From positions 1 to 53,998 of the forward strand of contig CAYNRB010000001.1 in NCBI GenBank assembly GCA_964399475.1: a DNA stretch of 53,998 nt, written 5' to 3'. Below the pieces are notes generated by a model. The model ran no database searches. It saw only the letters and a program-made list of their open reading frames with translations, and was not told the origin of the DNA. This DNA comes from an uncultured Methylomarinum sp. (GTDB lineage Bacteria; Pseudomonadota; Gammaproteobacteria; Methylococcales; Methylomonadaceae). Positions 30,713 through 53,998 of the stretch are shown here, piece by piece (the first letter of the stretch is position 1; the number at the start of each line of letters is the position of its first letter). The translations under genes and the position numbers were made by a program.

Positions 30713-30748
30713 AAATGTATAAGAAAACTCAAATAACAGGAAATTACA

Positions 30749-34679: not shown

Positions 34680-34760
34680 GCTTTTGTTTGAGAAATAACT
34701 AAATATAATTTATGAGTATCATTTATTATAGAATCAATACTAATAAAACGGGTAGAAATA

Positions 34761-35561: not shown

Positions 35562-35718
35562 CTTTGCTAATTAATAACGATGACTCCCAGCAATCTGACC
35601 ATCTACTTTTTTACAAAGTTGATTTAGTCATAAATGTGCTATATTTCTATATCAACAGATGACTTTCAAACAAAAAATCCTCTTGTGTAATTGATTATAT
35701 AAAGTTAAACACCCAAGT

Positions 35719-36426
35719 TCAATCAGATGAAAATTTGATAAATAATTTTTTAATTCTGATTTCATCAGAGGGTATTAATAAGCAACTTGAACTAATCACA
35801 CTTCCATTCAAGGTTACTTTTTTCTTTTTCACTGGACTAATATAAAACGAATGACCCACTTTATCAATTTCTGCAATATGAGCTGCAGTAAAAAAACCAC
35901 CTATCCGAATATCATTCTTTTTTGCCTTTCCAATAGAGTAGCTATCTTTAGTCAATAGCATTTTTTTTATTCCATTTAAATCACCTTTTACGATTAAATA
36001 GAAACTCTTCTGCTTGATATCTGAAGCAGCTTGAGATGTACCGGGTCCAGAAACTTTTGAAGATGACACCATAATTACAGTAGCATCACTCGACTCTTGT
36101 ACTGATACTGGAGCAGAACTATTTTGCTGTATCTGACTCCATTCCGAAATCTTTAAAATATGTTTACCAATAGTAACCGAATCTTCAAAACGAATTTTTT
36201 GACGTGTGCTTATCTTTTGGCTATTTAGAAATGTACCATTCGAACTATTCAAATCTTCAATGGTATATTGTCCGTTACTTACACTTATTACAGCATGAAA
36301 ACTTGAAACGCCCATATTATTGATAACAACTTCATTACTAGATGCTCTTCCAATACTAACAGTAACAGTTTTAATGGGTAAAGACTGCTTTAAGACGCCA
36401 TTAAAATAAATTTCAAGATAATTCAT
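35719..36426 (-). CDS. protein with two FHA domains
   Basis: 235 aa. FHA-1: SIGRASSNEVVINNMGVSSFHAVISVSNGQYTIEDLNSSNGTFLNSQKI. Ser-rich linker. FHA-2-like: YSIGKAKKNDIRIGGFFTAAHIAEIDKVGHSFYISPV..KVTLNGSVI. Confidence 0.8.
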   Translation of the reverse strand: MNYLEIYFNGVLKQSLPIKTVTVSIGRASSNEVVINNMGVSSFHAVISVSNGQYTIEDLNSSNGTFLNSQKISTRQKIRFEDSVTIGKHILKISEWSQIQQNSSAPVSVQESSDATVIMVSSSKVSGPGTSQAASDIKQKSFYLIVKGDLNGIKKMLLTKDSYSIGKAKKNDIRIGGFFTAAHIAEIDKVGHSFYISPVKKKKVTLNGSVISSSCLLIPSDEIRIKKLFIKFSSD

Positions 36427-41000: not shown

Positions 41001-41878
41001 ACGGGAACTGAAATTCGTCCACCGGTACCAGAACCTCGATTAGATTGCTTAATATCTGGACGACCCGGCTCTTCAAGTCGTTGAATCAAACCTAAGGCAT
41101 TAGGCAACCCAGTCTCAGGAAATAAATTAGTTATATTACGCCCACCTGCTTCAAAGACTCTGAAAACATCACCCTGTGGCATGTTTTCCCATCTTGGCAA
41201 CGGAATTAATGCAGGTACAATCCCTTTAGCGATCATATTTTCATCAGGTTCATGTGGATTAACCAACTTCTTGGGTAATCCTTCGCGCGTATATGATTCG
41301 CCCATAAAATAGCGTTTATATGGAACAATTCCATTATTGTATGCAGCTCCGCCCCACAACATAGCACCGGTAGCCATTAAACTTCTTTCAGATGCTTCAA
41401 TTATCTTCATATGGCATGCACCACATGACTCTCTTACAATCCGATAATCACTAGGATTAACAAAACGAATATATTCTGGTGATTCTCTATTCAAAAGGGT
41501 AAAACTATGCTTTGGATTCGCACTACTGGGATAATTCCACTCATTTGGTAAAGTAGGGATGACATGTGCTTTATTCATTGAAAGCTGGTATTCCAAATCT
41601 TTATCTGCACTGTTTTCCGGCTTAAACTCATCAGCGTTACCACCATGACAATCTACGCAACCCAAAGGCACTGCTTCAGTTTGATGCATAGATTGACTGT
41701 CTGTTTCGATATGACAACTCAAACAACCTCTAGACTTGGCATCAACTGCTTGCGGATCTTGGAATTGAGGTGCAATCAATGTTGAAGAATCTTTATCAAC
41801 ATCAAAAGCAGCATATCCGTTTATTGATACCAATAGGAATGCTATAAAAGAAAATATAATCAGCTTACATTTATTCAT
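38087..41878 (-). CDS. secreted decahaem c-type cytochrome fused to a C-terminal LVIVD-repeat beta-propeller
   Basis: 1263 aa with a signal peptide (IIFSFIAFLLVSINGYAA). Ten CxxCH motifs at aa 52, 74, 152, 323, 380, 533, 560, 671, 682 and 788. Residues ~880-1185 carry at least six LVIVD-like repeats (YLYVAEGSGGFRVYDV, YAFIVDAEEGLILTDV, YAYITADVGLIIINLDSP, YLFVTDADGFKVIDVTTP, YAYVAAGSQGLAIINVEKP, IGYVADGKNGLKVLQLTSP). Confidence 0.85.
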   Translation of the reverse strand: MNKCKLIIFSFIAFLLVSINGYAAFDVDKDSSTLIAPQFQDPQAVDAKSRGCLSCHIETDSQSMHQTEAVPLGCVDCHGGNADEFKPENSADKDLEYQLSMNKAHVIPTLPNEWNYPSSANPKHSFTLLNRESPEYIRFVNPSDYRIVRESCGACHMKIIEASERSLMATGAMLWGGAAYNNGIVPYKRYFMGESYTREGLPKKLVNPHEPDENMIAKGIVPALIPLPRWENMPQGDVFRVFEAGGRNITNLFPETGLPNALGLIQRLEEPGRPDIKQSNRGSGTGGRISVPVLNIHKTRLNDPFTWFLGTNDQPGDYRTSGCGSCHVVYANDRDPKHSGPYAKAGHSGKTQTIDPTISKNESGHPIKHQFTRAIPTSQCMICHMHQPNIFVNSFMGYTMWDYESDAPHMWPEKQRYLNSDQVRAGANPDPEQILSHAEVRKINERNPEEAAARGKWKDLEFVKNVSDLNPKLKDTQFADYHGHGWNFRAVFKRDRKGTLLDASGNEVSDTDPEKFNKAVHLSSIHMDVGMHCVDCHFAQDSHGNGHLYGEVAAAIEVDCIDCHGTADAYPNLRTSGPAAAIGGTDLSTLRNQDGKLRFEWRGNKLYQRSALFSDKEWELSLVKDTVNPAHTTYNAKAARAKLVSKNSETLAWGTDVAPEDRAHKNENMTCFTCHSSWVTSCAGCHLPIQANWKTDTLHYEGGEARNYATYNPQVVRDQMFQIGRHGQVKGNRIVPVRSSSALILSSRNANRELIYIQQPPVSSSGFSAQAFAPNFPHTTRKTETKQCEDCHLSAENDNNAIMAQLLLQGTNFVNFVGYNAYVGTESGISAIQVTEWEEPQAVIGSYLHKYAYPDWYKDHQNNKQVLKRVHSHSSDVASCLQLRGEYLYVAEGSGGFRVYDVASIANKGISQRIITAPFSPLGHDTHISSKNATCMALPTNQPIHPQRRYESNYGLSAEAMSKLMNETNQEQDFHPIYNYAFIVDAEEGLILTDVNTLSDGKARNNFLTRALTWNGDNILKGAKHITLGGYYAYITADVGLIIINLDSPLSPKVAAVIPLNNAKSTALQFRYLFVTDADGFKVIDVTTPEKAKLISGVSVALTDANRIYVARTYAYVAAGSQGLAIINVEKPESPKLLQLFTANGQLNDARDVIVASTNASLIGYVADGKNGLKVLQLTSPDSQPKFYGFSPEPKPELIASYPTSNIALALSKGLDRDRAVDETGGQIAVFGRIGSRPFTQQEMHKMYLKKDGTPWFTSNKVK

Positions 41879-41929
41879 GATAGTTGTACGAATGAATTAG
41901 AAAAAGTCAACATTACAATTTACCTAGAT

Positions 41930-43768
41930 TTAGTATGTGAGTATTAAATTACCCAAAACAGAATATAGTGTTTTATTACCATATAAATCTTTTAGGGCAT
42001 CTCCAGGGACTAAAGCCGCACCTGATAGTCGAAAAACAATATTCTGACTAAACTTAGGCCTATATATAGCAGAAACAGATAAGTCCCAGCCTATATCCGA
42101 GCTGATGCTGCCCTGATTCCTGGCAACTTCAAGCACATTTGTCTCATCAAAATAGAGTTTGTTAAAGTTTGTTGAAAGTCGAAATTCGGGTAAAATATCC
42201 ATATCGGTTCCAAGACCTATTAACACTATCCCCGGATTGGTAAAGTTTGACTGACCTTGATCTTTTGAAGATTCTAGTGAATTTAATATGCCATTTCTAC
42301 CAGATAGGGCAACACCTCCACCTCCTATAAAAGGCACGGCTTGCCTGATCCAAAAGCTACTATCAGCTCCAGCAAACTGAGGGTTTTCAACTATCGCATC
42401 ATAACCATTTGACTTGTTATCAAAGGCATCATCATCACCTGACGCATATAATCCAGACAACCTGACCCGTATCCAATCAAAATCCATGGACAGTTCACCG
42501 GCAAAAAAGTAAGCATCTATTTCACTTTCATCTACATTATATAAACCAGTCGTTTCATCTCCAAATAGATAATATCCAGATACAGTCAGATTGACCCGCC
42601 CAAAATGACCATCTCCATTAAAGCCCGCGTAATAGGCATCATAATCTCGGCCGATTTCATTTCCAATTGAAGCAGGTCTGACTAAAAATCCATTATCGTC
42701 GAAGAAACTATTATTTGCTTCTCTATTTCGGTTATAAGCAAAAGTTAGTTGAGACGTAAATCCACGTACCGGAAAATCTTGACGAAAAATATTTCCAAAG
42801 AAAACTTGATCATCTCGCAAGTCTTCAGAAATATCATTTAAACCGCTATTGGTATCTTTTTCGTGTCGCCAGATTGCAGCTAAATTGTATTGCCATAAAT
42901 TGTTATCCCATGTACCAAACAATCGAGCACCTAATTGTATATCCTGGAACAGGAAGCCTCTGAAATCTAAGGAAAAAGGCTGAATACCCACTCTGATACT
43001 ATTAAAATCATACCGATCAGAACTATTGTTTATATGATAATCTACAAATAGTTCTTGTATCGCAATATGACCATCTTCACGATCAGTACCTTCGCGCGGA
43101 TCTATATTCAAAAAACGCCGCTCCTCCACATCTGTGTAGTTATAATTAAACACAGGTGTAATACGAAATTCAAAATCTGGTGGTCTAAAAACTGTGTCAC
43201 CTTTGAAAAACACAAAAGCAACAATTAAATTTTGATTAAATAAGTACTGATCCTGAGAACCAAATACATCTATATCACCAGCGCTTGCAGTGGTTTGATT
43301 ACCATTTGGCGTAGGTATAAGCCTGTATTCACCAATCGTATCTGATATTACTGATACATTAGCAAACCAGTCATCAAAAATAGGTCTGTCACTTTTAATC
43401 AAATTCCGGTTATAGGGATCCAGAAAGCCTTCTTTTATGCCAATTGCATCCGCAATTCTCCAGCGATCAGGAACCGGTATAAATGTTTCAGGATAAAGAC
43501 CTTTTAATGCAGGAATCCGTTGAAGTCCACTTTTTCTGTTTGGGTCGGCAAGTTCAACGACTTCTGCTTCACTAACTGCAGTTGCACCAGGTCTGATACG
43601 CCTTCTTTCTCCACTCCCTTCATTTGAAGCATTCTCAGAAACGATATCTTGTTCAGCCACTACTGCAATTCCAGCATTTACAGTTGGTAAATAACACCAG
43701 CTGCTAGCTAATAATGTCAAGGCGACAGAACCTATAAAAGGTTTTTTATTATTTTCCACTGCATGCAT
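41930..43768 (-). CDS. putative large outer-membrane beta-barrel protein
   Basis: 612 aa. Signal peptide (SVALTLLASSWCYLPTVNA), pervasive alternating aromatic/polar beta-strand patterning, and a C-terminal ...LGNLILTY aromatic terminus typical of BAM substrates. Its start overlaps the upstream gene by 20 nt. Confidence 0.6.
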   Translation of the reverse strand: MHAVENNKKPFIGSVALTLLASSWCYLPTVNAGIAVVAEQDIVSENASNEGSGERRRIRPGATAVSEAEVVELADPNRKSGLQRIPALKGLYPETFIPVPDRWRIADAIGIKEGFLDPYNRNLIKSDRPIFDDWFANVSVISDTIGEYRLIPTPNGNQTTASAGDIDVFGSQDQYLFNQNLIVAFVFFKGDTVFRPPDFEFRITPVFNYNYTDVEERRFLNIDPREGTDREDGHIAIQELFVDYHINNSSDRYDFNSIRVGIQPFSLDFRGFLFQDIQLGARLFGTWDNNLWQYNLAAIWRHEKDTNSGLNDISEDLRDDQVFFGNIFRQDFPVRGFTSQLTFAYNRNREANNSFFDDNGFLVRPASIGNEIGRDYDAYYAGFNGDGHFGRVNLTVSGYYLFGDETTGLYNVDESEIDAYFFAGELSMDFDWIRVRLSGLYASGDDDAFDNKSNGYDAIVENPQFAGADSSFWIRQAVPFIGGGGVALSGRNGILNSLESSKDQGQSNFTNPGIVLIGLGTDMDILPEFRLSTNFNKLYFDETNVLEVARNQGSISSDIGWDLSVSAIYRPKFSQNIVFRLSGAALVPGDALKDLYGNKTLYSVLGNLILTY

Positions 43769-45740
43769 TTTGTTTACCTGAATTTAAAAATGGCTTATAA
43801 GGACATTGAACATAACGTAATCTAACACCAGCGAGTACTAAATTATCTGCGCGAATTTCAGGAGGTGCATTATTTACAGTATTAATTAGCTTACCTGCAT
43901 TATGCACGCCTAAAAAGGAAATCAAATCATCCTGATCAATACCATCACCTGAAACACCCAAGCCACCGATTAAGGTATTACCACGATAGACTGGAACGCT
44001 TCCTGGGAAAATCTGTATTCCATTTCTTAACTCTGGTATGGGCTGACCTACAGTAAAGTTCTGAATTCCCAAAAAGTTAGCAATAAAGTTTAATGTAGCG
44101 GGAGGGGAAGCTGTACAATCTTGTCCGATATCGGGAGCTAAGCCATAAAATGCAGCGACATGAGTCAACATACCATTAATAACCAGATCTAATTGTAATC
44201 CAGTTGAAAAAGGGCTCCATTCTGGAAAAGGCTTGCTAAAAGGGCCATTTTGAGCCCGTTGAAGACCATCAGGGAAAAACGGTCGAGATAAATTTCCACC
44301 GGCTCTATCTGTGAATGCAACTGCACCGGTCAAAACATTAGGATCATTGAATAAAGTAATTGTAGCATCGACATAACTGCTAATGGGAAAGCCAATTGCT
44401 TGACCTGGAAAACTAACATAAACAGCATCAGAAGCTGAATTCAATTTGTCTTGAGCGTCGCTCTTTGAAAAAAACATTGCTGTTCGTGCCTTTTGTAAGG
44501 ACACATCGGTACCAAATATTGGAGCATCTCGAGTTCGAACAACCCCTAGAATATCACCTTGGGTATCCACCAACGAAACTGTAACGCGAGCTTGAGAGTT
44601 AAAGGGTTGACGAATCTGCGCCCTGGCACTATTTGCAACTGCTATTGCACTGCGTAATAAAGCTAAGGATTCATCTCGGCTTATTCCTACACCCGCACGA
44701 ACAGGAAATCTTTCTTGGTTTGCATTATCAACTAGTACGAAAGCATCCAATCCAGCATAATCATTAGATGCCGGCCTTATTCCAGAATTTACCTCACCAA
44801 AAGCAGTACCTGCCAAAACCTGACCATCAAAATAGACAGGAACAGGGATAAGTAAACCTTTACCTGCTATTTGGGATAAATCCGAAAGTACATTAGAAAC
44901 CGTTTGAGTTTTTAAGTTTTTATATCGAATATCAGAATATCGTAGAGACTTACCTTCAACAGTAATACGATCAGCCCGATTTTTTCTGGAAGATTCAAAT
45001 CCTAAGGTTCCAGCAAGTGCAACCCGTTCATCAATAATATTATCCCGATCTCTAATATTAAGATCAGCACCATAAATTAAATCAGTCTCAACGCCAATCC
45101 CCCCAACTAAAGCTCCGTCTTTGTATAATGGAAAGCCACCAGGATCAGCAGAAAGCCCTAATGGAGAACGTTTAGGTCCAACATCTGCACCCGATGAAAA
45201 TCGCGTAACTAAATCTGAACAAGCAAGTGAACTAAATTGCACACCAAACAGTGGCCCTGCTGGTTGATTAAATTCCTGAGGGTTAAAATTCTGCATAATG
45301 ATATGACTTGCAGTACGCGTAGAAAACGCATTGCCTTCTGAAGAAAGATAGGCACCGGTAATTGCTTTGGCAATAGCTGATAGACTAGCTGGAATAACCC
45401 CTTTTATCCCATCCAAACCGGTCATAACGTTTCTTCCACCGTTTATCTCGATTCTTGGAAAAAAAGCATTATTTGGAAAAGGACCATTCATTTGATAAAC
45501 AGCCAATACATTTCCAACTCTATCAGTTACTGAAATTGTAGAGAATACACCCGCTATTTCAGACTCTTGTACAGCCTGAACAATAATCCGTCTAACATCA
45601 CTTTCTGTTAAGAAACTATTCGCTGTTGAGCAAAAGCCTGTACAACCATCCTTCGCAGAAATCTGAGGTGAAAATGATAAACAATTTGCTAGAAACACAA
45701 AACTTGCTATTAATTTTAGATTATATCTTTTCTTTTTCAT
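43749..45740 (-). CDS. secreted protein with two GlcG/HbpS-like (DUF336, haem-binding) domains
   Basis: 663 aa with a signal peptide. Two copies of the GlcG pattern: (1) VRRIIVQAVQES...ISVTDRVGNVLAVYQMNG ... AKAITGAY ... GGFPLYKDGALVGGIGVE; (2) LLRSAIAVANSA...TVSLVDTQGDILGVVRTRDA...SLQKARTAMFF ... FPGSVPVYRGNTLIGGLGVSGDGIDQDD. Confidence 0.6.
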   Translation of the reverse strand: MKKKRYNLKLIASFVFLANCLSFSPQISAKDGCTGFCSTANSFLTESDVRRIIVQAVQESEIAGVFSTISVTDRVGNVLAVYQMNGPFPNNAFFPRIEINGGRNVMTGLDGIKGVIPASLSAIAKAITGAYLSSEGNAFSTRTASHIIMQNFNPQEFNQPAGPLFGVQFSSLACSDLVTRFSSGADVGPKRSPLGLSADPGGFPLYKDGALVGGIGVETDLIYGADLNIRDRDNIIDERVALAGTLGFESSRKNRADRITVEGKSLRYSDIRYKNLKTQTVSNVLSDLSQIAGKGLLIPVPVYFDGQVLAGTAFGEVNSGIRPASNDYAGLDAFVLVDNANQERFPVRAGVGISRDESLALLRSAIAVANSARAQIRQPFNSQARVTVSLVDTQGDILGVVRTRDAPIFGTDVSLQKARTAMFFSKSDAQDKLNSASDAVYVSFPGQAIGFPISSYVDATITLFNDPNVLTGAVAFTDRAGGNLSRPFFPDGLQRAQNGPFSKPFPEWSPFSTGLQLDLVINGMLTHVAAFYGLAPDIGQDCTASPPATLNFIANFLGIQNFTVGQPIPELRNGIQIFPGSVPVYRGNTLIGGLGVSGDGIDQDDLISFLGVHNAGKLINTVNNAPPEIRADNLVLAGVRLRYVQCPYKPFLNSGKQNACSGK

Positions 45741-45829: not shown

Positions 45830-46375
45830 TTATTTTACTAAACCAAGATTCACAATTTTTACCCGTCTGTTTTTTGAGGAACCAGGATGTTTAGGGTCTA
45901 TTAACTCTGTCTCGCCTTTACCAACAACAACCATGCGTTCAACTGCAACACCATAATTATTGGTCAGATAATTACTAACAGAATCTGCACGTTGCTTTGA
46001 TAGATTATCGTTATATCCAGACTCTCCTAAGGCATCAGTATGTCCTTCAATTCTAAATTTATAAGACTGTAGTTGGGAGCCTTTAAGTGCGGTTCCAAGA
46101 GAATCTAGAGTTGTTTTGGTTCGCTCAGTTAAATCCGCAGAATCAAAATCAAATGTCAATGATAAATTTACTGCGACAGGCTTAGGATTAGTCTTTTTAA
46201 CCTGCCCTATACCTCGCGTTTTAATCCCTACACGAGGTACTAAAGCGTTGGTGAATTCTTCTTGAGTAGGAATTGCTGTTCCAAAATCAGTCACGCTTTC
46301 ATCAGCATAAACGAATCCATTGAAGCCAATTATTGACGAAATTGCTATTACTGAAACTGTCATATATATTTTCAT
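45830..46375 (-). CDS. OmpA-family peptidoglycan-associated protein
   Basis: 181 aa with a signal peptide. Motif: FDFDSADL...RIEGHTDALGESGYNDNLSKQRADSVSNYL...GKGETEL...NRRVKI. Confidence 0.8.
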   Translation of the reverse strand: MKIYMTVSVIAISSIIGFNGFVYADESVTDFGTAIPTQEEFTNALVPRVGIKTRGIGQVKKTNPKPVAVNLSLTFDFDSADLTERTKTTLDSLGTALKGSQLQSYKFRIEGHTDALGESGYNDNLSKQRADSVSNYLTNNYGVAVERMVVVGKGETELIDPKHPGSSKNRRVKIVNLGLVK

Positions 46376-47160: not shown

Positions 47161-48504
47161 ATGGCTTCAACAGTTAATTTGATTAAAGGCTGCATCTTTT
47201 TTTCATTTTTGTTTTTTCAAATAGCTATTTCTGAAGCAGCCAGTACAGCTATTCCCCAATTCGCAGACAACATCCATTTAGGTGTTGCAACATGTGCAGG
47301 GAGCGCATGTCATGGCTCTTCAGAACCCTTTGACACCTCCACCGTATTACAAAATGAATATCTCACTTGGCAACGCCACGACAAACACTCCAAAGCCTAT
47401 AAAGTTCTTTTCAATGATAGATCTAAAAGAATTGCTCGCAATTTAGGCCTAAAAGCAGCTCATACCGCGAAAATTTGCCTGGATTGCCATACTGATAATG
47501 TAGCTAAAGATAAACGTGGGCGCCGTTTTCAATTATCTGACGGTATTGGTTGTGAAGCTTGTCACGGTGGCGCTGAAAAATATTTAGGCCCACATGTCTC
47601 TGGATTAGCCACACATCAAGAAAATATCGACAATGGACTCTACCCTACTGAAAATCCAATCCAGAGAGCAAAACTTTGCCTTTCATGCCACTTAGGTACC
47701 AATAGCCAATTTGCAACCCATGACATTATGGGAGCGGGTCATCCACGAATTAACTTTGAATTGGATACCTATACTGCAACATCACCCGCCCACTATAAAG
47801 TCGACAAAGATTACCGAGAGAGAAAAGTAGTCTGGAGCCATGCTAGAACATGGGCTGTTGGTCAAGCAATGGCCGTTCAACAATATCTTAATCTTCTTAC
47901 CTCGCCAAAACGGCTAAAAAACGGCCTATTTCCAGAACTTGCTGTATTTGAATGTTATGCCTGCCATCAATCTATGAATGGTCAACGCTGGCAAAAACGT
48001 GAATCCAGTGACATAGGACCCGGAAATATTCGACTTCAGGAAAGCAATATTCTGATGATGAAACATATTGCTAAAGTTATTGACCCTAGCCTTGCCAGTT
48101 CTTTGCATACCAAAACTTTAAATCTTCATCAAGCCAGCACACAAAGCATCCCAAGCATTGTCAGTGCCGCAAAAGAACTAAAAGTATTGAATAGACAGCT
48201 AATTAATAAAATTGCCAGTACAAGTTTTTCTAGCGCAATTATTAACAAAGTACTTTCCAGCATCATCAATGATGGGATTAAAGGCAATTACTTTGATTAC
48301 GCAAGTGCCGAACAAAGTTTAATGGCAATTGAAGCATTAGCAACAACTTTAGCCAACGCCCGTGCGATTGATTTTTCAAGTTCCAGCCCTTTAGCTAAAA
48401 GCATTGATAAACTCTACGTGCTATTAGTAAATGATGATAATTTTTCTCCAAGCTCATTTGCTAGCGAATTAAAACAAATACAAACTAACCTTTCTATAAA
48501 ATAG
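47161..48504 (+). CDS. periplasmic multihaem (4x CxxCH + 1x CxxxxCH) c-type cytochrome with a non-haem helical C-terminal half
   Basis: 447 aa with a signal peptide (CIFFSFLFFQIAISEA). Motifs CAGSACH, CLDCH, CEACH, CLSCH and CYACH all lie in the first ~270 aa. AGGGG RBS. Confidence 0.8.
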   Translation: MASTVNLIKGCIFFSFLFFQIAISEAASTAIPQFADNIHLGVATCAGSACHGSSEPFDTSTVLQNEYLTWQRHDKHSKAYKVLFNDRSKRIARNLGLKAAHTAKICLDCHTDNVAKDKRGRRFQLSDGIGCEACHGGAEKYLGPHVSGLATHQENIDNGLYPTENPIQRAKLCLSCHLGTNSQFATHDIMGAGHPRINFELDTYTATSPAHYKVDKDYRERKVVWSHARTWAVGQAMAVQQYLNLLTSPKRLKNGLFPELAVFECYACHQSMNGQRWQKRESSDIGPGNIRLQESNILMMKHIAKVIDPSLASSLHTKTLNLHQASTQSIPSIVSAAKELKVLNRQLINKIASTSFSSAIINKVLSSIINDGIKGNYFDYASAEQSLMAIEALATTLANARAIDFSSSSPLAKSIDKLYVLLVNDDNFSPSSFASELKQIQTNLSIK

Positions 48505-48691
48505 GATACAAGCTTTCCTTTTAGCTGCTTGACACATTATTTATAAGGGATTTCCTTCAATTATCACGCATGCATTGTTCTGAATTTGAAATTGATTTTT
48601 GAACTCTAGATTTTATGTATAGGCGCAAGTTTTTCAAGTATGCTATTTCTTCTTTTCAAATAGTGTTTTTTTATTTTTCTGGATACAGATT

Positions 48692-51100
48692 ATGTCAGAT
48701 TCAAAACATTACAATATAGTTATCATTGGTTCTGGCCCCGGCGGAATGAGTGCTGCGGGTCGTGCTCAGGAAGCAGGTTTAAATTATATTTTACTTGAAG
48801 CCACAAGCCACCTATCCTATACCATTCACCTTTATCAAAAAGGTAAACACGTCATGGATGAACCGACTATTTTGCCTTTACGCAGTACCTTCGGGTTTAC
48901 AGCCGAATCTCGAGAGGAAATATTAGGTAAATGGGAAGATAAAATAAAATCCCTCAATGTTAATATTCAGTACGACTCCTATGTCGAAACAATTTCTGGT
49001 GAATCAGGAAATTTCACCATTAATATCAAAGGTGGGGAAGTAATAACTGCCGATAAAATTGTGCTTGGAATCGGGCTTCAAGGTAATCTTCGCAAAATGG
49101 GAGTAGAAGGTGAAGATTTACCTTTTGTACAATATCAACTGGATGACCCTGAAGAATATGAAGATGAAACGATTGTGGTTATTGGAGCGGGTGATGCAGC
49201 CATAGAAAATGCCATTGCTTTAGCAAAACAAAATAACGTTATTATCGTAAACCGAAAGAATGAGTTTGCACGAGCAAAAAAGGGCAATCTTAATGGCATT
49301 ACTAGAGCGATAGAAACCGAAACTTTAGAATGCTACTACAATTCAACCAGTGAATGCGTTAAAGCCCTTGATCAACCAGGTGAAAATGGAGAAAAAGGTG
49401 TTTTAGTTCTCAATACTGATGAGGGAACCACTGAAATACCTATACATCGAATCATTGCTCGCTTAGGTGCAATCCCTCCCAGACGATTTGTTGAAGCTTG
49501 TGGAATTGTTTTTCCTAGTAAGGATCCTGCGGCAGTTCCTGCTATCAGTGAAACCTATGAATCAAATGTTCCTGGCTTGCATATAGTCGGTGCTTTAGGC
49601 GGAAATCCTCTGATTAAAGCAGCCATGAACCAAGGCTATGAGGTCATTGAACACATTCAAGGCAACCCAATCGCACCAGCGGATGAGCCACTCTTAAAAG
49701 ACAAGTTTTCTAACCTTGATGCCAGCTTGTCGGTTAGCCAATTACTTGCCCAACTCTATAGCGCTTTACCATTCCTCCAATCATTAACTAAATTACAATT
49801 TAGAGAATTCATTTTAGACAGTGAGATAAGATTACCTCAACCAGGCGAGACCATATATGCAATCAATGATTTCAGTAACTCCTTCTATTCTATTATCACA
49901 GGTCAAGTCGATTTAATTTCTACCGCTGGAGAACGTGATCAGAAATCTACACTACAAAATGGTGATTTTTTTGGTGAATGGAGCTTAATATCGGGTCGCC
50001 GACGTTCTGATACCGCTATTGCCGGTAATAACTGCTTATTAATCGAAAGCGGTCGTAGAATGATGAAAAAACAAATCAGCTCGGATCCTTCCATAGCCGA
50101 TGCGATCAATAAAGTTTTCATCATGCGTGCAGTACAAACTCATCTTGCGCCTGGTGTTCCTCAAGCATTACTCAAAAAATACTTGAATCGAGCAGATATT
50201 GCTTATTTCAAACCCGGTGATTTCTTGCAGAAAGAAGGGGAATCTTGTAGTACCTTTCATATAATACGCTCTGGATCAGTTACGGTTTCACGCAAAGTAT
50301 CTGGCAAAGAAGTCTTAATTTCGTATATGCCTGTGGGTGAATTTCTGGGAGAAATGGCCATACTCAGTGGCAATGCTTGCATGACAACCGCTACGGCTAC
50401 TGTCGCAACTGAAACCATTAGTCTTGATGCCAGCATTTTTACCGAGATGATGAATGATGTTCCTCAAGTTGCACAACTAATTGAAAGCACTTTACAAGAA
50501 CGCCTTAGGGATTATGTACAACTACAAAATCATCCTGAACGAGGTGCAGCAATCTCATTTATGATGCAACAGGGCTTAGGTGAAGCAACCGATGTTCTGG
50601 TTATTGACGAATCATTATGCGTACAATGCGATAACTGCGAAAAAGCCTGTGCGGAAACCCACAACGGCACTTCTCGATTAGATCGTGAAGCTGGCCCCAC
50701 CTATGCCTCACTCCATATTCCAACATCTTGCCGACATTGTGAACAACCACACTGTATGAAAGATTGCCCTCCTGATGCCATTCATCGAGCAAATAATGGT
50801 GAAGTCTTTATTGACCAAAGTTGTATAGGATGTGGTAATTGCCAGCAGAACTGTCCCTACGGTGTCATACAAATGGCAAAATCCGGAACCAAAACCACCA
50901 ATCTTTTTCAATGGCTAGTACTTGGTAAAGGTTCGGCACCCGGAGAAAAAGCAACCCATTTTGATGCTGATGTTCAAAAGAAAGCGGTTAAATGTGATAT
51001 GTGTAAAGATTTACCCGGCGGACAAGCCTGCGTTAGAGCCTGTCCAACGGGTGCTGCAATTCGCATAAATCCTGAACAACTTATTGAATTAACCATATAA
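48692..51100 (+). CDS. cytoplasmic fusion oxidoreductase: FAD/NAD(P)-binding pyridine-nucleotide-disulfide-type domain + two cyclic-nucleotide-binding domains + four-cluster [4Fe-4S] ferredoxin domain
   Basis: 802 aa with no signal peptide. Rossmann motifs IVIIGSGPGGMSAAGRA and IVVIGAGDAAIENA. cNMP-like blocks FFGEWSLISGRRRSDTAIA and FLGEMAILSGNACMTTATA. Cys groups CVQCDNCEKAC, CRHCEQPHCMKDCP, CIGCGNCQQNCP and CDMC..x7..CVRACP (DmsB/NrfC-like spacing). Confidence 0.8.
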   Translation: MSDSKHYNIVIIGSGPGGMSAAGRAQEAGLNYILLEATSHLSYTIHLYQKGKHVMDEPTILPLRSTFGFTAESREEILGKWEDKIKSLNVNIQYDSYVETISGESGNFTINIKGGEVITADKIVLGIGLQGNLRKMGVEGEDLPFVQYQLDDPEEYEDETIVVIGAGDAAIENAIALAKQNNVIIVNRKNEFARAKKGNLNGITRAIETETLECYYNSTSECVKALDQPGENGEKGVLVLNTDEGTTEIPIHRIIARLGAIPPRRFVEACGIVFPSKDPAAVPAISETYESNVPGLHIVGALGGNPLIKAAMNQGYEVIEHIQGNPIAPADEPLLKDKFSNLDASLSVSQLLAQLYSALPFLQSLTKLQFREFILDSEIRLPQPGETIYAINDFSNSFYSIITGQVDLISTAGERDQKSTLQNGDFFGEWSLISGRRRSDTAIAGNNCLLIESGRRMMKKQISSDPSIADAINKVFIMRAVQTHLAPGVPQALLKKYLNRADIAYFKPGDFLQKEGESCSTFHIIRSGSVTVSRKVSGKEVLISYMPVGEFLGEMAILSGNACMTTATATVATETISLDASIFTEMMNDVPQVAQLIESTLQERLRDYVQLQNHPERGAAISFMMQQGLGEATDVLVIDESLCVQCDNCEKACAETHNGTSRLDREAGPTYASLHIPTSCRHCEQPHCMKDCPPDAIHRANNGEVFIDQSCIGCGNCQQNCPYGVIQMAKSGTKTTNLFQWLVLGKGSAPGEKATHFDADVQKKAVKCDMCKDLPGGQACVRACPTGAAIRINPEQLIELTI

Positions 51101-51120
51101 CAAATAAGGAAAATACTCTT

Positions 51121-52059
51121 ATGCAAGAATCATTTCTGAATTATGAACGTTTCCGTTACTTAAAGCTGGCTGTAGCTGTTTCATTGCTTTCCCTTATTCT
51201 GTATATATTTCATGATCCAGGTGTTGCACCGCCAAATGGAGGCACTTGGTTAGGCTACTTGTTAGGTAGTATTTCGGCGGGAATTATCTTTTTACTGCTT
51301 TGGTTTGGTATCAGAAAACGCCGATATTCCTCAACAGCTGGTACAGTAAAAGGCTGGTTATCTGCACATATATACCTTGGCATCGCATTAATTTTTGTTG
51401 GAACGCTTCATACTGGATTTCAATTTGGCTGGAATGTCCACACGCTAGCCTATACATTAATGATTCTAGTTATTCTAAGTGGATTCTATGGATTATATGT
51501 TTATATCCGTTATCCAACCATGCTTAATACCCATAGAAATGGAATAAATCGCTTGGAAATGCTTAAGGAAATTAATGAACTGGATGAACTGTCACTCTCC
51601 ATTGCCAATAACGAATTAAGTCCAAAAATTCATGAAGTTATCTTGCGTTCTATCGAAAAAACTCGAATAGGTACCTCTGTCTGGCAACAATTGACTGCAA
51701 TGGAATACGGCTCTGACCCCTTTGAAGGTGTTGAAAAAATGTTAGCAGATTATCAACAAGGTGTGCAAAGTGAAACCTTAATGCTGGACAGCAATCAGCA
51801 ATCAGGTAACTCAACTAACTCACAAGCTACCATGATGTATATCAGTAATGCCTTGAATGTGATTGACTCGGATCAGCTTGAATCCGTACGAAGATTACTG
51901 GAAGCCGTGGGAAGAAAAAAATCATTAGTCAAACAAGTTAGACGTGATATCCAGTTAAAAGCAACCATCCAGTTCTGGCTATATATTCATATTCCACTTT
52001 CACTAGCTTTATTTGCTGCATTAATCATCCATATATTTAGCGTTTTCTTTTATTGGTAA
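51121..52059 (+). CDS. integral membrane protein, candidate dihaem b-type transmembrane electron carrier
   Basis: 312 aa with about 5 TM helices and a ~150-aa soluble insert. TM3 reads H83-x13-H97 (HIYLGIALIFVGTLH) and TM5 reads H290-x13-H304 (HIPLSLALFAALIIH). Confidence 0.5.
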   Translation: MQESFLNYERFRYLKLAVAVSLLSLILYIFHDPGVAPPNGGTWLGYLLGSISAGIIFLLLWFGIRKRRYSSTAGTVKGWLSAHIYLGIALIFVGTLHTGFQFGWNVHTLAYTLMILVILSGFYGLYVYIRYPTMLNTHRNGINRLEMLKEINELDELSLSIANNELSPKIHEVILRSIEKTRIGTSVWQQLTAMEYGSDPFEGVEKMLADYQQGVQSETLMLDSNQQSGNSTNSQATMMYISNALNVIDSDQLESVRRLLEAVGRKKSLVKQVRRDIQLKATIQFWLYIHIPLSLALFAALIIHIFSVFFYW

Positions 52060-52065
52060 GCTATC

Positions 52066-53811
52066 ATGAAATGTCTTGTAAATTATATTACTCGCCGTAA
52101 AAACGGTAATATTAGTACTAAATCAAAAGAAGTTGATGCCAACAGCATTGGTATTGGACGTGCTACTGACCAGGAAATTTTCTTATCAGATCTTCGTATT
52201 GCTTATAAACATGCTGAAATAGTTCTGCTTGAAGGAAAATACTACATCAAATCCCTGGCTTTATCTGGCATTAGACTGAACAATGCCATTACTTCATCAG
52301 TTTTGTTGACACCAGGCGTTGTCGTACAAATAGGAAACTACGAACTTAAAGTTATTGAAAAACCGGGTTATGACCTCGTTGTGGAACTTGAACAAGTCAC
52401 CACAAGTGAAGTTCTAAATGACCAAATAAAATTAGAGTCAAAACTGGATTTAAATCAAACAAAATTAAACAAGCGCCTTCTATCCTGGATAGGTTTTGCT
52501 ACGATATTTGTACTGTTTTTTATTCTCCCTTTAAGTTCTTCATTATTTCAACCGATTAAAGACATTAGCTCTAAAATTCCGCTTATACCAACCGATGCGG
52601 CATGGAAATCAGGCTCCATGGCATCTGTACATCATTTTTTCAAAAATGACTGTCGCTCTTGCCATCAAGATGCATTTGTTCAAGTTAAAGATGAAGCCTG
52701 TACTAGTTGCCATAAAGATACCCACATACATGCCAACGATAACTTAATGGTCAATCAAAATTTAAATAATATCGCTTGTCAGGATTGCCATAAGGAACAC
52801 AATGGAACTGACGGGATGATTATGCCTTCATCCAATAATTTCTGTAGTGATTGCCATGCAGATTTAAAAGAAACATTAGCAGATAAAACTAAATTACTAG
52901 ATGCTAGTGATTTTGGCGATGACCATCCTGAGTTTAGAGCCTCTATCCCTTATTCTAAGTTTGGCAAAAAGAGATTTTCTCGTATATCTATGGATAATAC
53001 TGAGAAACTTAAAGAAAAAAATGCGGTGGTTTTTTCTCATAAAGCTCATTTACAACCTTATTTTCCAGCCAGATTTAAAGAATTGACTAAAAATGGTGCT
53101 GAAAAAATGGCATGTATGGACTGCCACGTTCCTGATAGTGGTGGGAAACGCATGATTCCCATCAATTTTGAAGACAACTGTGAGAGCTGTCATAAGCTGG
53201 AAATTGGCAAAAAACAAGCTCGTTTAAAATTACCACATGAGGCAACAACTGAAGTCTATTATTATATAGAACAGTATTATAAGTCACTTGCCCTTGATGG
53301 CGGCATAACCGATACTGAAACCCCAACAGGTTTGAGAACCAGACGACGAGCAGGCCAAGCCATTTCTTCTGAGGAAAGATTAGTTGCATTAAACTGGGCT
53401 TCAAAAAAATCTAAGCAAGTTGCTGAAGAAATTTTTAACTACACGCTTTGTAAAACCTGCCATATAGTAACCAGCTCTGAGAATGCAACACCTCCTTGGA
53501 ACATTTCAGCCGTTTACACACCAGACTTATGGTTTCCAAAAGCAAATTTCACCCATTCCAAACATACAACCATGGAATGCTTAGATTGTCATAATGTAGA
53601 GCAGTCTGAAGTAGGCGAAGATGTTTTGATGCCCAAAATCGCTGATTGCCGAAGTTGTCACGCTGGGGCTCATAATGATGAATTATTGGCTTCTGGATGT
53701 ATTGATTGCCATAGCTTTCATATTGGAAAAGAACTACTTGCTCCTCCTGCACCTACTATTGTAGAACTGAAAGCTACTGGTAATGAAGCTGAAGAAGTAA
53801 TAATAGAATAG
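52066..53811 (+). CDS. FHA domain - single TM - decahaem c-type cytochrome fusion protein
   Basis: 581 aa. N-terminal FHA-like block (IGIGRATDQEIFLSDLRIAYKHAEIVLLEGKYYIKSLALSGIRLNN). TM at aa 138-160 (LSWIGFATIFVLFFILPLSSSLF). Ten CxxCH motifs follow: CRSCH, CTSCH, CQDCH, CSDCH, CMDCH, CESCH, CKTCH, CLDCH, CRSCH, CIDCH. Confidence 0.85.
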   Translation: MKCLVNYITRRKNGNISTKSKEVDANSIGIGRATDQEIFLSDLRIAYKHAEIVLLEGKYYIKSLALSGIRLNNAITSSVLLTPGVVVQIGNYELKVIEKPGYDLVVELEQVTTSEVLNDQIKLESKLDLNQTKLNKRLLSWIGFATIFVLFFILPLSSSLFQPIKDISSKIPLIPTDAAWKSGSMASVHHFFKNDCRSCHQDAFVQVKDEACTSCHKDTHIHANDNLMVNQNLNNIACQDCHKEHNGTDGMIMPSSNNFCSDCHADLKETLADKTKLLDASDFGDDHPEFRASIPYSKFGKKRFSRISMDNTEKLKEKNAVVFSHKAHLQPYFPARFKELTKNGAEKMACMDCHVPDSGGKRMIPINFEDNCESCHKLEIGKKQARLKLPHEATTEVYYYIEQYYKSLALDGGITDTETPTGLRTRRRAGQAISSEERLVALNWASKKSKQVAEEIFNYTLCKTCHIVTSSENATPPWNISAVYTPDLWFPKANFTHSKHTTMECLDCHNVEQSEVGEDVLMPKIADCRSCHAGAHNDELLASGCIDCHSFHIGKELLAPPAPTIVELKATGNEAEEVIIE

Positions 53812-53998
53812 ATTTTCGTGGGCATTGCACAATTTTCATCTGTTTGGAACAGTTTTTACATCTCTATTTATATGGTTAAAAACAGGCTGAAAAACTTGAG
53901 CAAGTAATGTCTATTATGGCGCTAGGAACGAATGCGAGATAAGCTAGACATACAACGGGTTGGATTATGAATTGTAACTAACACAAGGATGTGTATAG

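What the first reader, a model, noticed from the sequence alone, without database searches (positions are those of the whole stretch)
52066..53811. FHA phosphothreonine-reader domain fused through one TM helix to a periplasmic decahaem cytochrome
**Seen in sequence.**
- An N-terminal ~100-aa FHA-like domain (GR..D..I.L......H.EI......Y.I..L.S..G..LN pattern).
- One TM helix at aa 138-160, with no signal peptide before it. This predicts an N-in topology.
- Ten CxxCH motifs follow the TM helix.

**Established knowledge.** FHA domains bind pThr peptides in the cytoplasm.

**Inference.** Coupling an FHA domain to a haem wire suggests the respiratory module is assembled, gated or localised by Ser/Thr phosphorylation. 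A Hanks kinase, a PP2C phosphatase and a dual-FHA protein lie about 16 kb upstream in the same window. I do not know of a characterised FHA-multihaem cytochrome.
Basis: partly seen in the sequence, partly recalled or inferred. Interest (0 to 1): 0.85.

Follow-up and report, generated by a model that had tools for sequence, protein, structure and literature searches.

The report
Membrane decahaem cytochrome with cytoplasmic FHA domain

Summary
ORF 52066-53811 (+) encodes 581 aa: an N-terminal FHA domain, one TM helix (aa 138-160) and ten CxxCH motifs.
- **FHA domain.** Pfam PF00498 scores 31.4 bits (cut-off 20.7). The AF2 model has pLDDT >90 and matches OdhI/GarA in Foldseek.
- **Haems.** Ten distal His are invariant across the family.
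- **Topology.** N-in is supported.
- **Identity.** The gene is PtdG of the seven-gene ptdABCDEFG cluster (Elbon et al. 2024 preprint), and all seven genes are in the window. The function of this cluster is unknown. The FHA-multihaem fusion was listed in 2023 and remarked on in a 2026 preprint.
- **Family size.** 614 representatives at 50% identity score E<=1e-30.
- **pThr pocket.** The "pThr reader" reading is only partly supported. Across 192 members GR (90%) and His (82%) are kept, but the SxxH Ser is present in 10% (Ala here) and the loop Asn in none. The window's separate 235-aa FHA protein has the full set.
- **Kinase link.** Kinase/PP2C genes sit in or beside ptd clusters in Marinobacter, Haliea and Methylococcales.
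- **Best model.** PtdE (NAD(P)H flavo-FeS, cNMP-binding), PtdF (two invariant H-x13-H pairs, putative dihaem b) and PtdG form a transmembrane electron conduit. The non-canonical FHA would be its cytoplasmic docking or regulatory handle.
- **Novelty.** A new member of a known, uncharacterised kind.

The parts
52066..53811 (+). ptdG-type gene: FHA, TM helix and decahaem cytochrome c, 581 aa
   Evidence: ORF. Pfam FHA plus cytochrome c3/c7 families. 146 or more homologues. 614 representative clusters at E<=1e-30.
52066..52395 (+). FHA-fold domain, aa 1-110, cytoplasmic. Has G31, R32, H49, N72. Ala46 replaces the canonical Ser; Ser67 replaces the canonical Asn.
   Evidence: PF00498 31.4 bits against GA 20.7. 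pLDDT about 90+. Foldseek matches to OdhI/GarA. Residue mapping. As conserved as the haem domain.
52396..52476 (+). Variable cytoplasmic linker, aa 111-137, ending in the near-invariant K136-R137
   Evidence: Low pLDDT. Highest entropy of the internal segments, 3.06 bits. K136 and R137 conservation.
52477..52545 (+). Single transmembrane helix, aa 138-160, with invariant P155
   Evidence: Hydropathy. Modelled helix 136-160. Positive-inside count 98 of 116.
52603..53721 (+). Periplasmic decahaem domain, aa 180-552: ten CxxCH and ten invariant distal His
51121..52059 (+). ptdF-type gene: 312-aa membrane protein with five predicted TM helices. Invariant H83/H97 (TM3) and H290/H304 (TM5), both H-x13-H, make it a putative dihaem cytochrome b. 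Stop codon lies 6 nt before the ptdG start.
   Evidence: Weak Ni_hydr_CYTB hit, 22.5 bits, below GA. Some homologues are named cytochrome b or ferric-reductase-like by their sources. No structural match in the PDB.
48692..51100 (+). ptdE-type gene: 802-aa cytoplasmic protein with an FAD/NAD(P)-binding Pyr_redox domain, two cNMP-binding domains and a C-terminal poly-ferredoxin with four Cys motifs
   Evidence: Pfam and NCBIfam. No TM helix or signal peptide. Conservation profile.
47161..48504 (+). ptdD-type gene: secreted cytochrome c554-like protein with 4 CxxCH and 1 CxxxxCH
43749..45740 (-). ptdC-type gene: secreted 663-aa protein with HbpS-like domains and no haem c motif
41930..43768 (-). 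ptdB-type gene: secreted 612-aa protein, possibly an outer-membrane porin
   Evidence: Signal-peptide-like N terminus. Weak hit to an outer-membrane porin family, 26.6 bits, far below its cut-off. Called a porin by Elbon et al..
38087..41878 (-). ptdA-type gene: secreted 1263-aa protein with 10 CxxCH and C-terminal LVIVD repeats. It is the most conserved gene of the cluster.
   Evidence: (55-72% identity across classes).
45830..46375 (-). OmpA-family gene between the two divergent halves of the cluster. Also present beside the cluster in L004 and L007.
32970..36426 (.). Flanking Ser/Thr signalling trio: Hanks kinase (32970-34679, -), PP2C (34761-35561, +) and a 235-aa protein with a canonical FHA domain (35719-36426, -)
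   Evidence: Pfam. The FHA protein carries the full R/S/H/S/N/N set. Comparable genes flank or sit inside ptd clusters in L004, L007, L044, L064, L069, L075, L078 and L082.

Best explanation
The gene encodes the PtdG subunit of a ptd-type multihaem gene cluster. It is a bitopic inner-membrane protein. Its C-terminal ~400 residues carry ten bis-His c-type haems in the periplasm. Its N-terminal 110 residues form an FHA-fold domain in the cytoplasm.

**Proposed conduit (inferred).** PtdG works with the two genes always found immediately upstream.
- PtdE is a soluble cytoplasmic FAD/NAD(P)H-binding protein with a chain of 4Fe-4S clusters and two cyclic-nucleotide-binding domains.
- PtdF is a five-helix membrane protein whose two invariant H-x13-H pairs would hold two stacked b haems.
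- Together they would form a transmembrane electron conduit: NAD(P)H to FAD, to the FeS chain, to haem b inside, to haem b outside, to the ten c haems.
- From there electrons would pass to the secreted cytochromes PtdD and PtdA and the porin-like PtdB.

**Role of the FHA domain (inferred).** It is non-canonical. It keeps the fold, the GR Arg and the His, but lacks the phosphate-binding Ser and the peptide-binding Asn. It most likely acts as a phospho-independent docking or regulatory handle. It would hold, or gate, the soluble PtdE (or another cytoplasmic partner) at the membrane complex. Two precedents fit. The FHA-TM-periplasmic proteins of type III secretion (MxiG/YscD) dock a cytoplasmic platform. 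The FHA protein GarA/OdhI clamps onto a metabolic enzyme. Ser/Thr kinase and phosphatase genes attached to the cluster in some lineages probably add a regulatory layer. Whether they act through this FHA domain is open.

**Shown.** Sequence features, fold, topology logic, conservation and synteny.

**Inferred.** Haem b binding, direction of electron flow, and the partner of the FHA domain.
For: **Architecture and fold.**

**The gene set matches the published ptd cluster.**
- The adjacent order ptdE-ptdF-ptdG is seen in about 60 of 82 loci from Alpha-, Beta- and Gammaproteobacteria.
- The other four genes are also present in most loci whose contig extends far enough.
- The set and the D-E-F-G order agree with the ptdABCDEFG description and its Table S7.

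**PtdF.**
- H83, H97, H107, H290 and H304 are 98-100% conserved in 70 orthologues and invariant in 30 database homologues.
- H83/H97 lie on TM3 and H290/H304 on TM5, 14 residues apart in each pair.
- The RKR 65-67 loop places H83 and H290 on the cytoplasmic side and H97 and H304 on the periplasmic side (inference).

**PtdE.** Pyr_redox, two cNMP_binding domains and Fer4 domains, with no TM helix.

**The FHA domain is functional, not a relic.**
- Its mean column entropy is 2.48 bits. The haem domain without its CxxCH residues gives 2.42 bits, and the linker 3.06 bits.

**The FHA domain is non-canonical.**
- Ser is present in 19 of 192 members, and Asn in 0 of 192 with a one-residue loop deletion. 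Arg is present in 173 and His in 157.
- Pfam also gives a sub-threshold match to the T3SS cytoplasmic FHA family Yop-YscD_cpl.

**Precedents.**
- MxiG-N is a cytoplasmic FHA fold on a single-pass inner-membrane protein that lacks the full motif set and does not bind pThr (PMC3162421).
- The closest structural matches are GarA/OdhI, which are solved in complex with KGD/OdhA enzymes.

**Kinase genes are not universal.** No kinase or PP2C gene lies within 10 kb in most loci.
Against: - No experiment exists on any member of the family.
- Haem b in PtdF is inferred from a His pattern only. Pfam cytochrome b561 scores below its cut-off. The AF2 model of PtdF found no structural relative in the PDB.
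- The near-invariant Arg32, together with His49 and a frequent Arg44, leaves an anion-binding pocket possible. Weak or atypical pThr binding is therefore not excluded.
- Kinase and PP2C genes are operonic with ptd in Marinobacter and Haliea, and adjacent in Methylococcales including this window. That argues for phospho-control of something in the system.
- In Thiomargarita and other Thiotrichales loci the FHA-decahaem gene stands without ptdE or ptdF nearby. In L052 it follows a different FeS plus membrane-protein pair. PtdE therefore cannot be the only possible partner.
- The direction of electron flow is not determined by any result here.
Confidence: 0.5

Rival explanations
1. The FHA domain is a true phosphothreonine reader. 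The neighbouring Hanks kinase phosphorylates a Thr on a partner: PtdE, the PtdF loop, the 235-aa FHA protein's target, or the kinase itself. The FHA domain of PtdG binds that pThr and so assembles, localises or gates the electron conduit. PP2C reverses it.
For: - Real FHA fold, with closest relatives among pThr-binding bacterial FHA domains such as GarA, OdhI, FhaA and EmbR.
- Arg32 is kept in 90% and His49 in 82% of members.
- In Marinobacter the gene order is STK-ptdE-F-G-C-B-A-D-PP2C on one strand with small gaps.
- In Haliea a PP2C gene overlaps the end of ptdD.
- STK, PP2C or FHA genes abut the cluster in three Methylococcales loci and in this window.
Against: - The canonical phosphate-binding Ser is Ala here and is Ser in only 10% of members.
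- The loop Asn is absent in all 192 members, and the loop is one residue shorter.
- From my own knowledge, Ser-to-Ala mutants of characterised FHA domains lose pThr binding.
- Members from lineages with an operonic kinase or PP2C are no more canonical. Marinobacter has Ala, and Haliea has lost GR and His altogether.
- Most loci have no kinase or PP2C gene within 10 kb.
- A canonical stand-alone FHA protein sits next to the kinase and could be the actual reader.
Confidence: 0.25
2. This is the model of the Ferrigenium preprint: an inward electron route. The membrane-anchored multihaem protein receives electrons from outer-membrane Fe(II) oxidases or other periplasmic donors. It then reduces the quinone pool directly, like the NapC/NirT-type anchors CymA and NrfH. 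The FHA domain plays an unspecified regulatory role.
For: - Single TM anchor with a periplasmic haem wire.
- The family is present in iron-oxidising Gallionellaceae and in a biocathode Haliea MAG.
- The authors propose this model.
Against: - No match to NapC/NirT-type families was reported in the Pfam or NCBIfam scans.
- All haem motifs start 36 or more residues after the TM helix.
- The invariant partnership with a putative dihaem-b protein and an NAD(P)H/FAD/FeS protein points to a route to or from the cytoplasm rather than to quinone.
- The cluster also occurs in aerobic heterotrophs such as Erythrobacter, Porphyrobacter and Marinobacter.
Confidence: 0.15
3. The FHA domain is a self-association or purely structural module. 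It would, for example, dimerise or ring-stack PtdG on the cytoplasmic face, or stabilise membrane insertion. It would have no ligand of its own.
For: - Some FHA folds serve in oligomeric assemblies, such as the T3SS SctD rings.
- The Haliea members keep the domain while losing GR and His.
Against: - Conservation of the surface Arg of the GR motif in 90% of members, and domain conservation equal to that of the haem domain, suggest a specific binding surface.
- No evidence for oligomerisation was obtainable with these tools.
Confidence: 0.1

Closest known systems
PtdG of the ptdABCDEFG cluster (Elbon et al., bioRxiv 10.1101/2023.11.21.568154)
   Same: - Ten CxxCH.
- Encoded directly after a cNMP-binding 4Fe-4S protein (PtdE) and a membrane 'ferric-reductase-like' protein (PtdF).
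- The same seven-gene set includes a porin-like protein and two further multihaem proteins.
- Found in Alpha- and Gammaproteobacteria and in Nitrospina.
   Different: - The paper calls PtdG simply 'periplasmic' and mentions neither the FHA domain nor the TM anchor.
- It labels PtdA pentahaem, whereas the PtdA here and 47 of 48 full-length orthologues have ten CxxCH.
- Here the cluster is split into two divergent halves with an OmpA-family gene between them.
- I could not align directly to their accession numbers.
'NHC' nonahaem cytochrome of Ferrigenium straubiae (bioRxiv 10.64898/2026.01.22.701106) and Gallionellaceae cluster 403 'Forkhead-associated protein', 10 CXXCH (Hoover 2023, PMC10734462)
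   Same: - Cytosolic FHA domain, one TM helix and a periplasmic multihaem domain.
- Adjacent five-helix membrane protein and 4Fe-4S protein.
- Function unknown.
   Different: - Nine haems are reported there rather than ten.
- That gene sits near nirK, apparently without the PtdA-D genes.
- The authors saw no redox motif in the membrane protein, whereas the orthologues here have two invariant H-x13-H pairs.
SctD family of type III secretion (YscD, MxiG, PrgH)
   Same: - Same topology: an N-terminal cytoplasmic FHA fold, one TM helix and a large periplasmic domain.
- The FHA lacks the full pThr motif set and serves as a docking surface for a cytoplasmic assembly (PMC3162421).
- Pfam Yop-YscD_cpl matches weakly.
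   Different: - The score is below the family cut-off (27.6 against 33.2).
- The periplasmic part is a decahaem cytochrome, not ring-building domains.
- There are no T3SS genes nearby.
- This is an analogy of design, not family membership.
GarA/OdhI FHA regulators of Actinobacteria
   Same: - Closest solved FHA domains by sequence (E 1e-6, 28% identity) and by fold.
- They bind large metabolic enzymes directly. Complexes with KGD/OdhA are in the PDB.
   Different: - GarA/OdhI are small soluble proteins with the complete R/S/H/S/N/N set, and they are kinase substrates.
- The domain here lacks the Ser and the Asn and is fused to a membrane cytochrome.
Transmembrane redox complexes of sulfate reducers (Tmc, Hmc) and NOX/ferric-reductase-type dihaem membrane domains
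   Same: Same logic: a cytoplasmic FeS or flavin module, a membrane b-haem module with His pairs on two helices, and a periplasmic multihaem c module.
   Different: - No family-level sequence match: TmcA scores 17.5 bits and HmcA 13.1 bits, far below their cut-offs.
- PtdF has no structural match in the PDB.
- None of those systems carries an FHA domain.

Membership tests
FHA domain (Pfam PF00498) | Profile score above the curated cut-off | tested here: met
   31.4 bits against 20.7, over aa 30-90.
FHA domain (Pfam PF00498) | Beta-sandwich fold superposable on solved FHA domains | tested here: met
   In the AF2 model, aa 1-110 have pLDDT about 87-95 and 11 strands. Foldseek probability is 1.00 and target TM 0.73-0.79 to OdhI/GarA; the top 50 hits are all FHA domains.
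Canonical pThr-binding FHA | [quoted passage not shown] | tested here: met
   G31-R32 are present. Arg is present in 173 of 192 family members.
Canonical pThr-binding FHA | SxxH motif: phosphate-binding Ser and structural His | tested here: not met
   The sequence is A46-Y-K-H49. The His is kept (157 of 192), but the Ser is Ala here and is Ser in only 19 of 192.
Canonical pThr-binding FHA | NG motif in the beta6-beta7 loop (peptide-binding Asn) | tested here: not met
   The sequence is S67-G68. Asn is present in 0 of 192 members, and the loop is one residue shorter than in GarA.
Canonical pThr-binding FHA | Measured binding of pThr peptides | not testable with these tools
   Needs ITC, NMR or peptide arrays.
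PtdG / ptd cluster (Elbon et al.) | Decahaem protein encoded directly after ptdE (cNMP-binding FeS protein) and ptdF (membrane protein) | tested here: met
   In the window the order is 48692-51100, 51121-52059, 52066-53811. The same order is seen in about 60 loci. A Nitrospina-labelled contig shows the D-E-F-G order, and Table S7 lists a Nitrospina MAG with consecutive PtdD-G accessions.
PtdG / ptd cluster (Elbon et al.) | Presence of the other cluster genes (ptdA, B, C, D) | tested here: met
   Window genes at 38087-45740 (-) and 47161-48504 (+).
PtdG / ptd cluster (Elbon et al.) | Sequence identity to the accession numbers listed by the authors | not tested
   Those sequences are not retrievable with these tools. 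The assignment rests on gene content, gene order and protein descriptions.
SctD (YscD/MxiG) T3SS inner-ring protein | Yop-YscD_cpl profile above its cut-off, and a T3SS gene context | tested here: not met
   27.6 bits against a cut-off of 33.2. None of the window ORFs scanned (30 of the 37 of at least 120 aa) is a T3SS gene.
NapC/NirT (CymA, NrfH) quinol dehydrogenases | Match to NapC/NirT family profiles, with a tetrahaem domain close to the membrane | tested here: not met
   No such Pfam or NCBIfam hit for this protein at E<=1. The first haem motif begins 36 residues after the TM helix.
MtrA/DmsE periplasmic decahaem family (TIGR03508) | Profile score above the cut-off | tested here: not met
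   29 bits against a cut-off of 192.2.
Dihaem cytochrome b (for the partner PtdF) | Two His pairs on two TM helices, spaced 13-14 residues, and a profile or fold match to a known cytochrome b family | tested here: inconclusive
   The His pairs H83/H97 and H290/H304 are invariant. PF01292 scores only 22.5 bits against a cut-off of 30.1, and Foldseek finds no relative.

The most novel reading that the evidence does not exclude
Despite its missing Ser and Asn, the PtdG FHA domain could be a phospho-dependent switch. In that reading, a Hanks kinase and PP2C pair encoded in or beside the ptd cluster turns a transmembrane NAD(P)H-to-periplasm (or extracellular) haem conduit on and off. It would do so through an atypical, Arg32-centred pThr pocket. 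That would be the first case of Ser/Thr phosphorylation directly gating a multihaem electron wire. It would also define a new class of pThr-binding FHA pocket.
Probability: 0.2. Interest if true: 0.8.

Novelty: new member of a known kind. Interest (0 to 1): 0.5.

Why it matters
**Why the system matters.** The ptd cluster is widespread, from marine and freshwater Proteobacteria to Nitrospina. It is transcribed in oxygen-deficient zones and in iron oxidisers. Its function is completely unknown.

**What this analysis adds.**
- It shows how the cytoplasm could be wired to the periplasmic haems, through a putative dihaem-b subunit with two invariant H-x13-H pairs.
- It shows that the cytoplasmic side carries two regulatory modules: cNMP-binding domains on PtdE and an FHA fold on PtdG.
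- It shows that the FHA domain is non-canonical across the family, while kinase and PP2C genes are repeatedly attached to the cluster.

**Why it is testable.** These points give concrete experiments in cultured hosts that carry the cluster: Marinobacter salexigens, Erythrobacter longus DSM 6997 and Porphyrobacter sp. LM 6.

**If the conduit exports reducing power.** Its tight control would bear on extracellular electron transfer by methanotrophs and marine heterotrophs.

Tried and rejected
- **Locus search with the 34-sequence alignment.** The search for related loci failed because no conserved 7-10-column stretch was found. It worked with 11 closer sequences.
- **Contig look-up.** The exact PtdG product is not in the contig index. 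The PtdF look-up gave only a 4.9-kb contig. The organism is therefore inferred only from the nearest homologues, which are Methyloprofundus.
- **PtdF structure.** The AF2 model (pLDDT 72) has no Foldseek match in the PDB at E<=0.001. The fold gives no support for, and no evidence against, cytochrome b.
- **PtdA against PDB sequences.** No hit at E<=1.
- **Candidate phospho-acceptor.** I looked for a conserved Thr in the cytoplasmic loop of PtdF. T237 is Thr in only 129 of 187 sequences and lies in a hydrophobic, helical-looking segment. PtdE has no standout Thr in a variable loop. Both were rejected as evidence.
- **Promoter and terminator scans.** Scans around 46300-47200 and 53700-53998 gave nothing above shuffled expectation.
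- **Co-folding.** I considered co-folding FHA with PtdE or PtdF as a linked chain.
- **Literature searches that found nothing relevant.**
  - 'FHA' with 'multi-heme' returned nothing.
  - The one 'LVIVD' with 'multiheme' hit concerns a different Tenderiales protein.
  - The GarA 'phospho-independent' search found no paper usable for that point, so that point rests on my own knowledge.
- **Family assignments rejected.** NapC/NirT, MtrA/DmsE, TmcA/HmcA and SctD memberships were rejected on profile scores.
Full report

Yes. The window has an ATG-initiated ORF at 52066..53811 (+) of 581 aa.
- It contains exactly ten CxxCH motifs and one strongly hydrophobic stretch at aa ~138-160.
- Pfam finds an FHA domain at aa 30-90 with 31.4 bits, against a gathering cut-off of 20.7. 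It also finds several multihaem cytochrome c families.
- An AlphaFold2 model built on 34 homologues gives pLDDT of about 87-95 for aa 1-110, an all-beta domain. Helix 136-160 follows it.
- Foldseek against the PDB returns only FHA domains among the top 50 hits. The best are OdhI and GarA, with probability 1.00 and target TM-score 0.73-0.79.
- There is no signal peptide: residues 2-10 are the first FHA strand.
- In 98 of 116 family members the 15 residues before the helix hold more Lys+Arg than the 15 after it. K136/R137 are almost invariant.
- c-type haem attachment takes place outside the cytoplasm (established knowledge). Together with the charge bias, this makes the N-in topology secure.
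- 114 of the 116 full-length homologues have ten CxxCH; one has nine plus a variant motif and one was not in the list printed. Ten additional His are invariant, enough for ten bis-His haems.

**2. What is it?**

The protein belongs to a large family.
- There are 146 or more hits at 90% clustering, the closest from Methyloprofundus at 67-69% identity.
- There are 614 representatives at 50% clustering with E<=1e-30, most aligning from residue 1.
- Eighty-two loci were fetched around relatives in Methylococcales, Granulosicoccaceae, Thiomargarita, Rhodanobacteraceae, Rhodospirillaceae, Erythrobacteraceae, Marinobacter, Haliea, Burkholderiales and others.
- In about 60 of them the gene is preceded, always in the same order and almost without gaps, by two genes. 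The first encodes an ~800-aa protein with an FAD/NAD(P)-binding domain, two cNMP-binding domains and a ferredoxin domain. The second encodes a ~300-aa membrane protein.
- Most of these loci also carry four further genes:
  - a c554-like cytochrome;
  - a secreted HbpS-like protein;
  - a secreted 612-aa protein, which may be a porin;
  - a 1263-aa secreted protein with ten haem motifs and LVIVD repeats.
- The last of these is the most conserved gene of the set, at 55-72% identity across proteobacterial classes.
- All seven genes are in the window, as two divergent halves: 38087-45740 on the minus strand and 47161-53811 on the plus strand.

This gene set matches the ptdABCDEFG cluster named by Elbon et al. 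(bioRxiv 10.1101/2023.11.21.568154).
- They state that its function 'remains completely unknown'.
- A contig carrying a Nitrospina-labelled PtdF homologue has the D-E-F-G order. Their Table S7 lists a Nitrospina MAG whose PtdD-G accession numbers are consecutive.
- The gene in question is therefore PtdG.
- That paper calls PtdG 'periplasmic' and does not mention an FHA domain.

The fusion has nevertheless been seen by others.
- Hoover et al. 2023 list a Gallionellaceae cytochrome cluster 'Forkhead-associated protein' with 10 CXXCH in 27 genomes (PMC10734462).
- A 2026 preprint on Ferrigenium straubiae describes a membrane 'NHC' cytochrome with a cytosolic FHA domain. It sits next to a five-helix membrane protein and a 4Fe-4S protein. 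The authors remark that FHA domains had not been reported with multihaem cytochromes.

**3. Is the FHA domain a phosphothreonine reader?**

The canonical motif set is GR, SxxH and NG (McDowell et al. 2011, PMC3162421).
- I aligned the domain to GarA, its closest solved relative. G31-R32 and H49 are in place.
- The phosphate-binding Ser is Ala46.
- The beta6-beta7 loop is one residue shorter and has Ser67 where the Asn should be.
- This is a property of the family, not of this sequence. Among 192 unique members Arg is present in 173 and His in 157, but Ser in only 19 and Asn in none.
- As a control, GarA and the window's own 235-aa FHA protein (35719-36426) have all six positions.
- The domain is nevertheless under constraint. 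Its mean column entropy is 2.48 bits. The haem domain without its CxxCH residues gives 2.42 bits, and the linker 3.06 bits.
- It is therefore a functional FHA fold with an incomplete pThr pocket.
- The precedent with the same topology is the SctD family of type III secretion. MxiG-N is a cytoplasmic FHA fold on a single-pass inner-membrane protein. It lacks the full motif set and does not bind pThr.
- Pfam gives a sub-threshold match to that family's cytoplasmic domain.

**4. The link to Ser/Thr signalling**

They lie only 1.6 kb beyond the last gene of the cluster. I searched all loci with the window's kinase domain, PP2C and canonical FHA, and confirmed the hits with Pfam.
- In Marinobacter the order is kinase-ptdE-F-G-C-B-A-D-PP2C on one strand, with gaps of tens of bases or less.
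- In Haliea a PP2C gene overlaps the end of ptdD.
- In three other Methylococcales/Crenotrichaceae loci a kinase, or a PP2C plus a canonical FHA gene, directly precedes ptdD.
- These are at least three lineages, which is more than I would expect by chance. I did not compute a formal background.

Against a universal role:
- most loci have none of these genes within 10 kb;
- the PtdG FHA is no more canonical where the kinase is operonic (Marinobacter has Ala);
- the Haliea proteins have lost GR and His altogether.

Phospho-control of the system in some lineages is therefore likely.

**5. How it most likely works**

- **PtdF.** It has five predicted TM helices.
  - Five His are 98-100% conserved in 70 orthologues and invariant in 30 database homologues.
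  - H83/H97 lie on helix 3 and H290/H304 on helix 5, each pair 14 residues apart. H107 is the fifth.
  - The conserved RKR 65-67 loop places H83 and H290 near the cytoplasmic face and H97 and H304 near the periplasmic face (inference).
  - This is the pattern of dihaem b proteins that carry electrons across membranes (own knowledge).
  - Support is partial. Pfam cytochrome b561 scores 22.5 bits, below its cut-off. Some homologues are named cytochrome b or ferric-reductase-like by their sources. The AF2 model finds no PDB relative.
- **PtdE.** It has no TM segment. It combines a pyridine-nucleotide oxidoreductase domain, two cNMP-binding domains and four ferredoxin-type Cys motifs.
- **The model.** It is a cytoplasm-to-periplasm electron conduit:
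  - NAD(P)H to FAD to FeS in PtdE;
  - two b haems in PtdF;
  - ten c haems in PtdG;
  - onward to PtdD, PtdA and PtdB.
- **The FHA domain.** It would tether or gate the soluble PtdE, or another cytoplasmic partner. I put this at about 0.5.
  - The architecture and cluster identity alone are about 0.9.
  - The docking role is the uncertain part.
- **Unknown.** The direction of electron flow is not determined.

Facts that do not fit neatly:
- in Thiomargarita and other Thiotrichales loci the FHA-decahaem gene stands alone;
- in L052 it follows a different FeS plus seven-helix membrane pair.

The FHA domain may therefore have more than one kind of partner.

**6. Rivals**

- **(a) Canonical pThr reader gated by the kinase and PP2C, about 0.25.** The synteny and the conserved Arg support it. 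The missing Ser and Asn weaken it.
- **(b) The Ferrigenium authors' CymA/NrfH-like route into the quinone pool, about 0.15.** No NapC/NirT match was found. The invariant PtdE/PtdF partnership argues otherwise.
- **(c) A purely structural or self-association role, about 0.1.**

**7. Comparison with known families and novelty**

- The protein passes the FHA fold tests. It fails two of the three canonical pThr motif tests.
- It is not a member of the SctD, NapC/NirT, MtrA/DmsE, TmcA or HmcA families by profile score.
- It fits PtdG by gene content and order. Direct comparison with the published accessions was not possible.
- The kind is therefore known and named but uncharacterised, and this is a new member from a Methyloprofundus-like methanotroph.
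- The analysis adds three points that the papers read here and the literature searches do not report:
  - the family-wide loss of the Ser and Asn;
  - the H-x13-H pairs of PtdF;
  - the recurrent kinase/PP2C attachment.
- Interest is moderate. The system is widespread and testable in cultured carriers. The headline fusion is already in the literature, and the pThr mechanism is weakened.

Noticed in passing
window 4698-7274 (-) and 10606-14697 (-); also 3338-4639, 7834-9861, 390-1589: Two very long flagellins, of 858 and 1363 aa, have Flagellin_N and Flagellin_C ends and a huge middle region ('giant flagellins'). They sit beside a 433-aa flagellin, FliD and a MotY-like protein.
   Followed up: no
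window 38087-41878 (-): PtdA has ten CxxCH motifs plus LVIVD repeats, and so do 47 of 48 full-length orthologues. The paper that named it calls it pentahaem. It is the most conserved cluster gene (55-72% identity across classes), yet it has no sequence relative in the PDB. Its best NCBIfam hit is a weak partial match to ExtM.
   Followed up: partly
window 51121-52059 (+): PtdF carries invariant H83/H97 and H290/H304 (H-x13-H on two helices) plus H107. The 2026 Ferrigenium preprint states that the membrane protein beside its FHA-cytochrome (apparently the equivalent of PtdF) has no redox motif. The family is far larger than PtdG's, with more than 4200 hits.
   Followed up: partly
L002 20930-21761 (Porphyrobacter sp. 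LM 6): A CHASE2-guanylate cyclase gene abuts the ptd cluster, and PtdE carries two cNMP-binding domains. This hints at cyclic-nucleotide control of the same module.
   Followed up: no
L011, L013, L017, L020, L026 (Thiomargarita/Thiotrichales); L052 8022-9736: In these loci the FHA-decahaem gene occurs without ptdE or ptdF nearby. In L052 it follows a 241-aa 4Fe-4S protein and a seven-helix 333-aa membrane protein instead.
   Followed up: partly
L075, L078, L082 (Haliea), gene at about 9812-11524 and PP2C at 20410-21459: The Haliea PtdG keeps an N-terminal domain but has lost the GR and His of the FHA motif set. Yet a PP2C gene overlaps the end of ptdD in the same operon.
   Followed up: partly
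window 36514-37716: Three small ORFs of 106, 51 and 114 aa, of unknown nature, fill the 1.6-kb gap between the canonical FHA protein gene and the end of ptdA. The 114-aa ORF ends in a hydrophobic segment.
   Followed up: no
window 25282-32422: A block of C1-metabolism genes: malate dehydrogenase, a methylene-H4MPT dehydrogenase-like gene, a glycerate-kinase-like gene (DUF4147/MOFRL), SHMT and formate-THF ligase. It is consistent with a methanotroph of the Methyloprofundus group.
   Followed up: no
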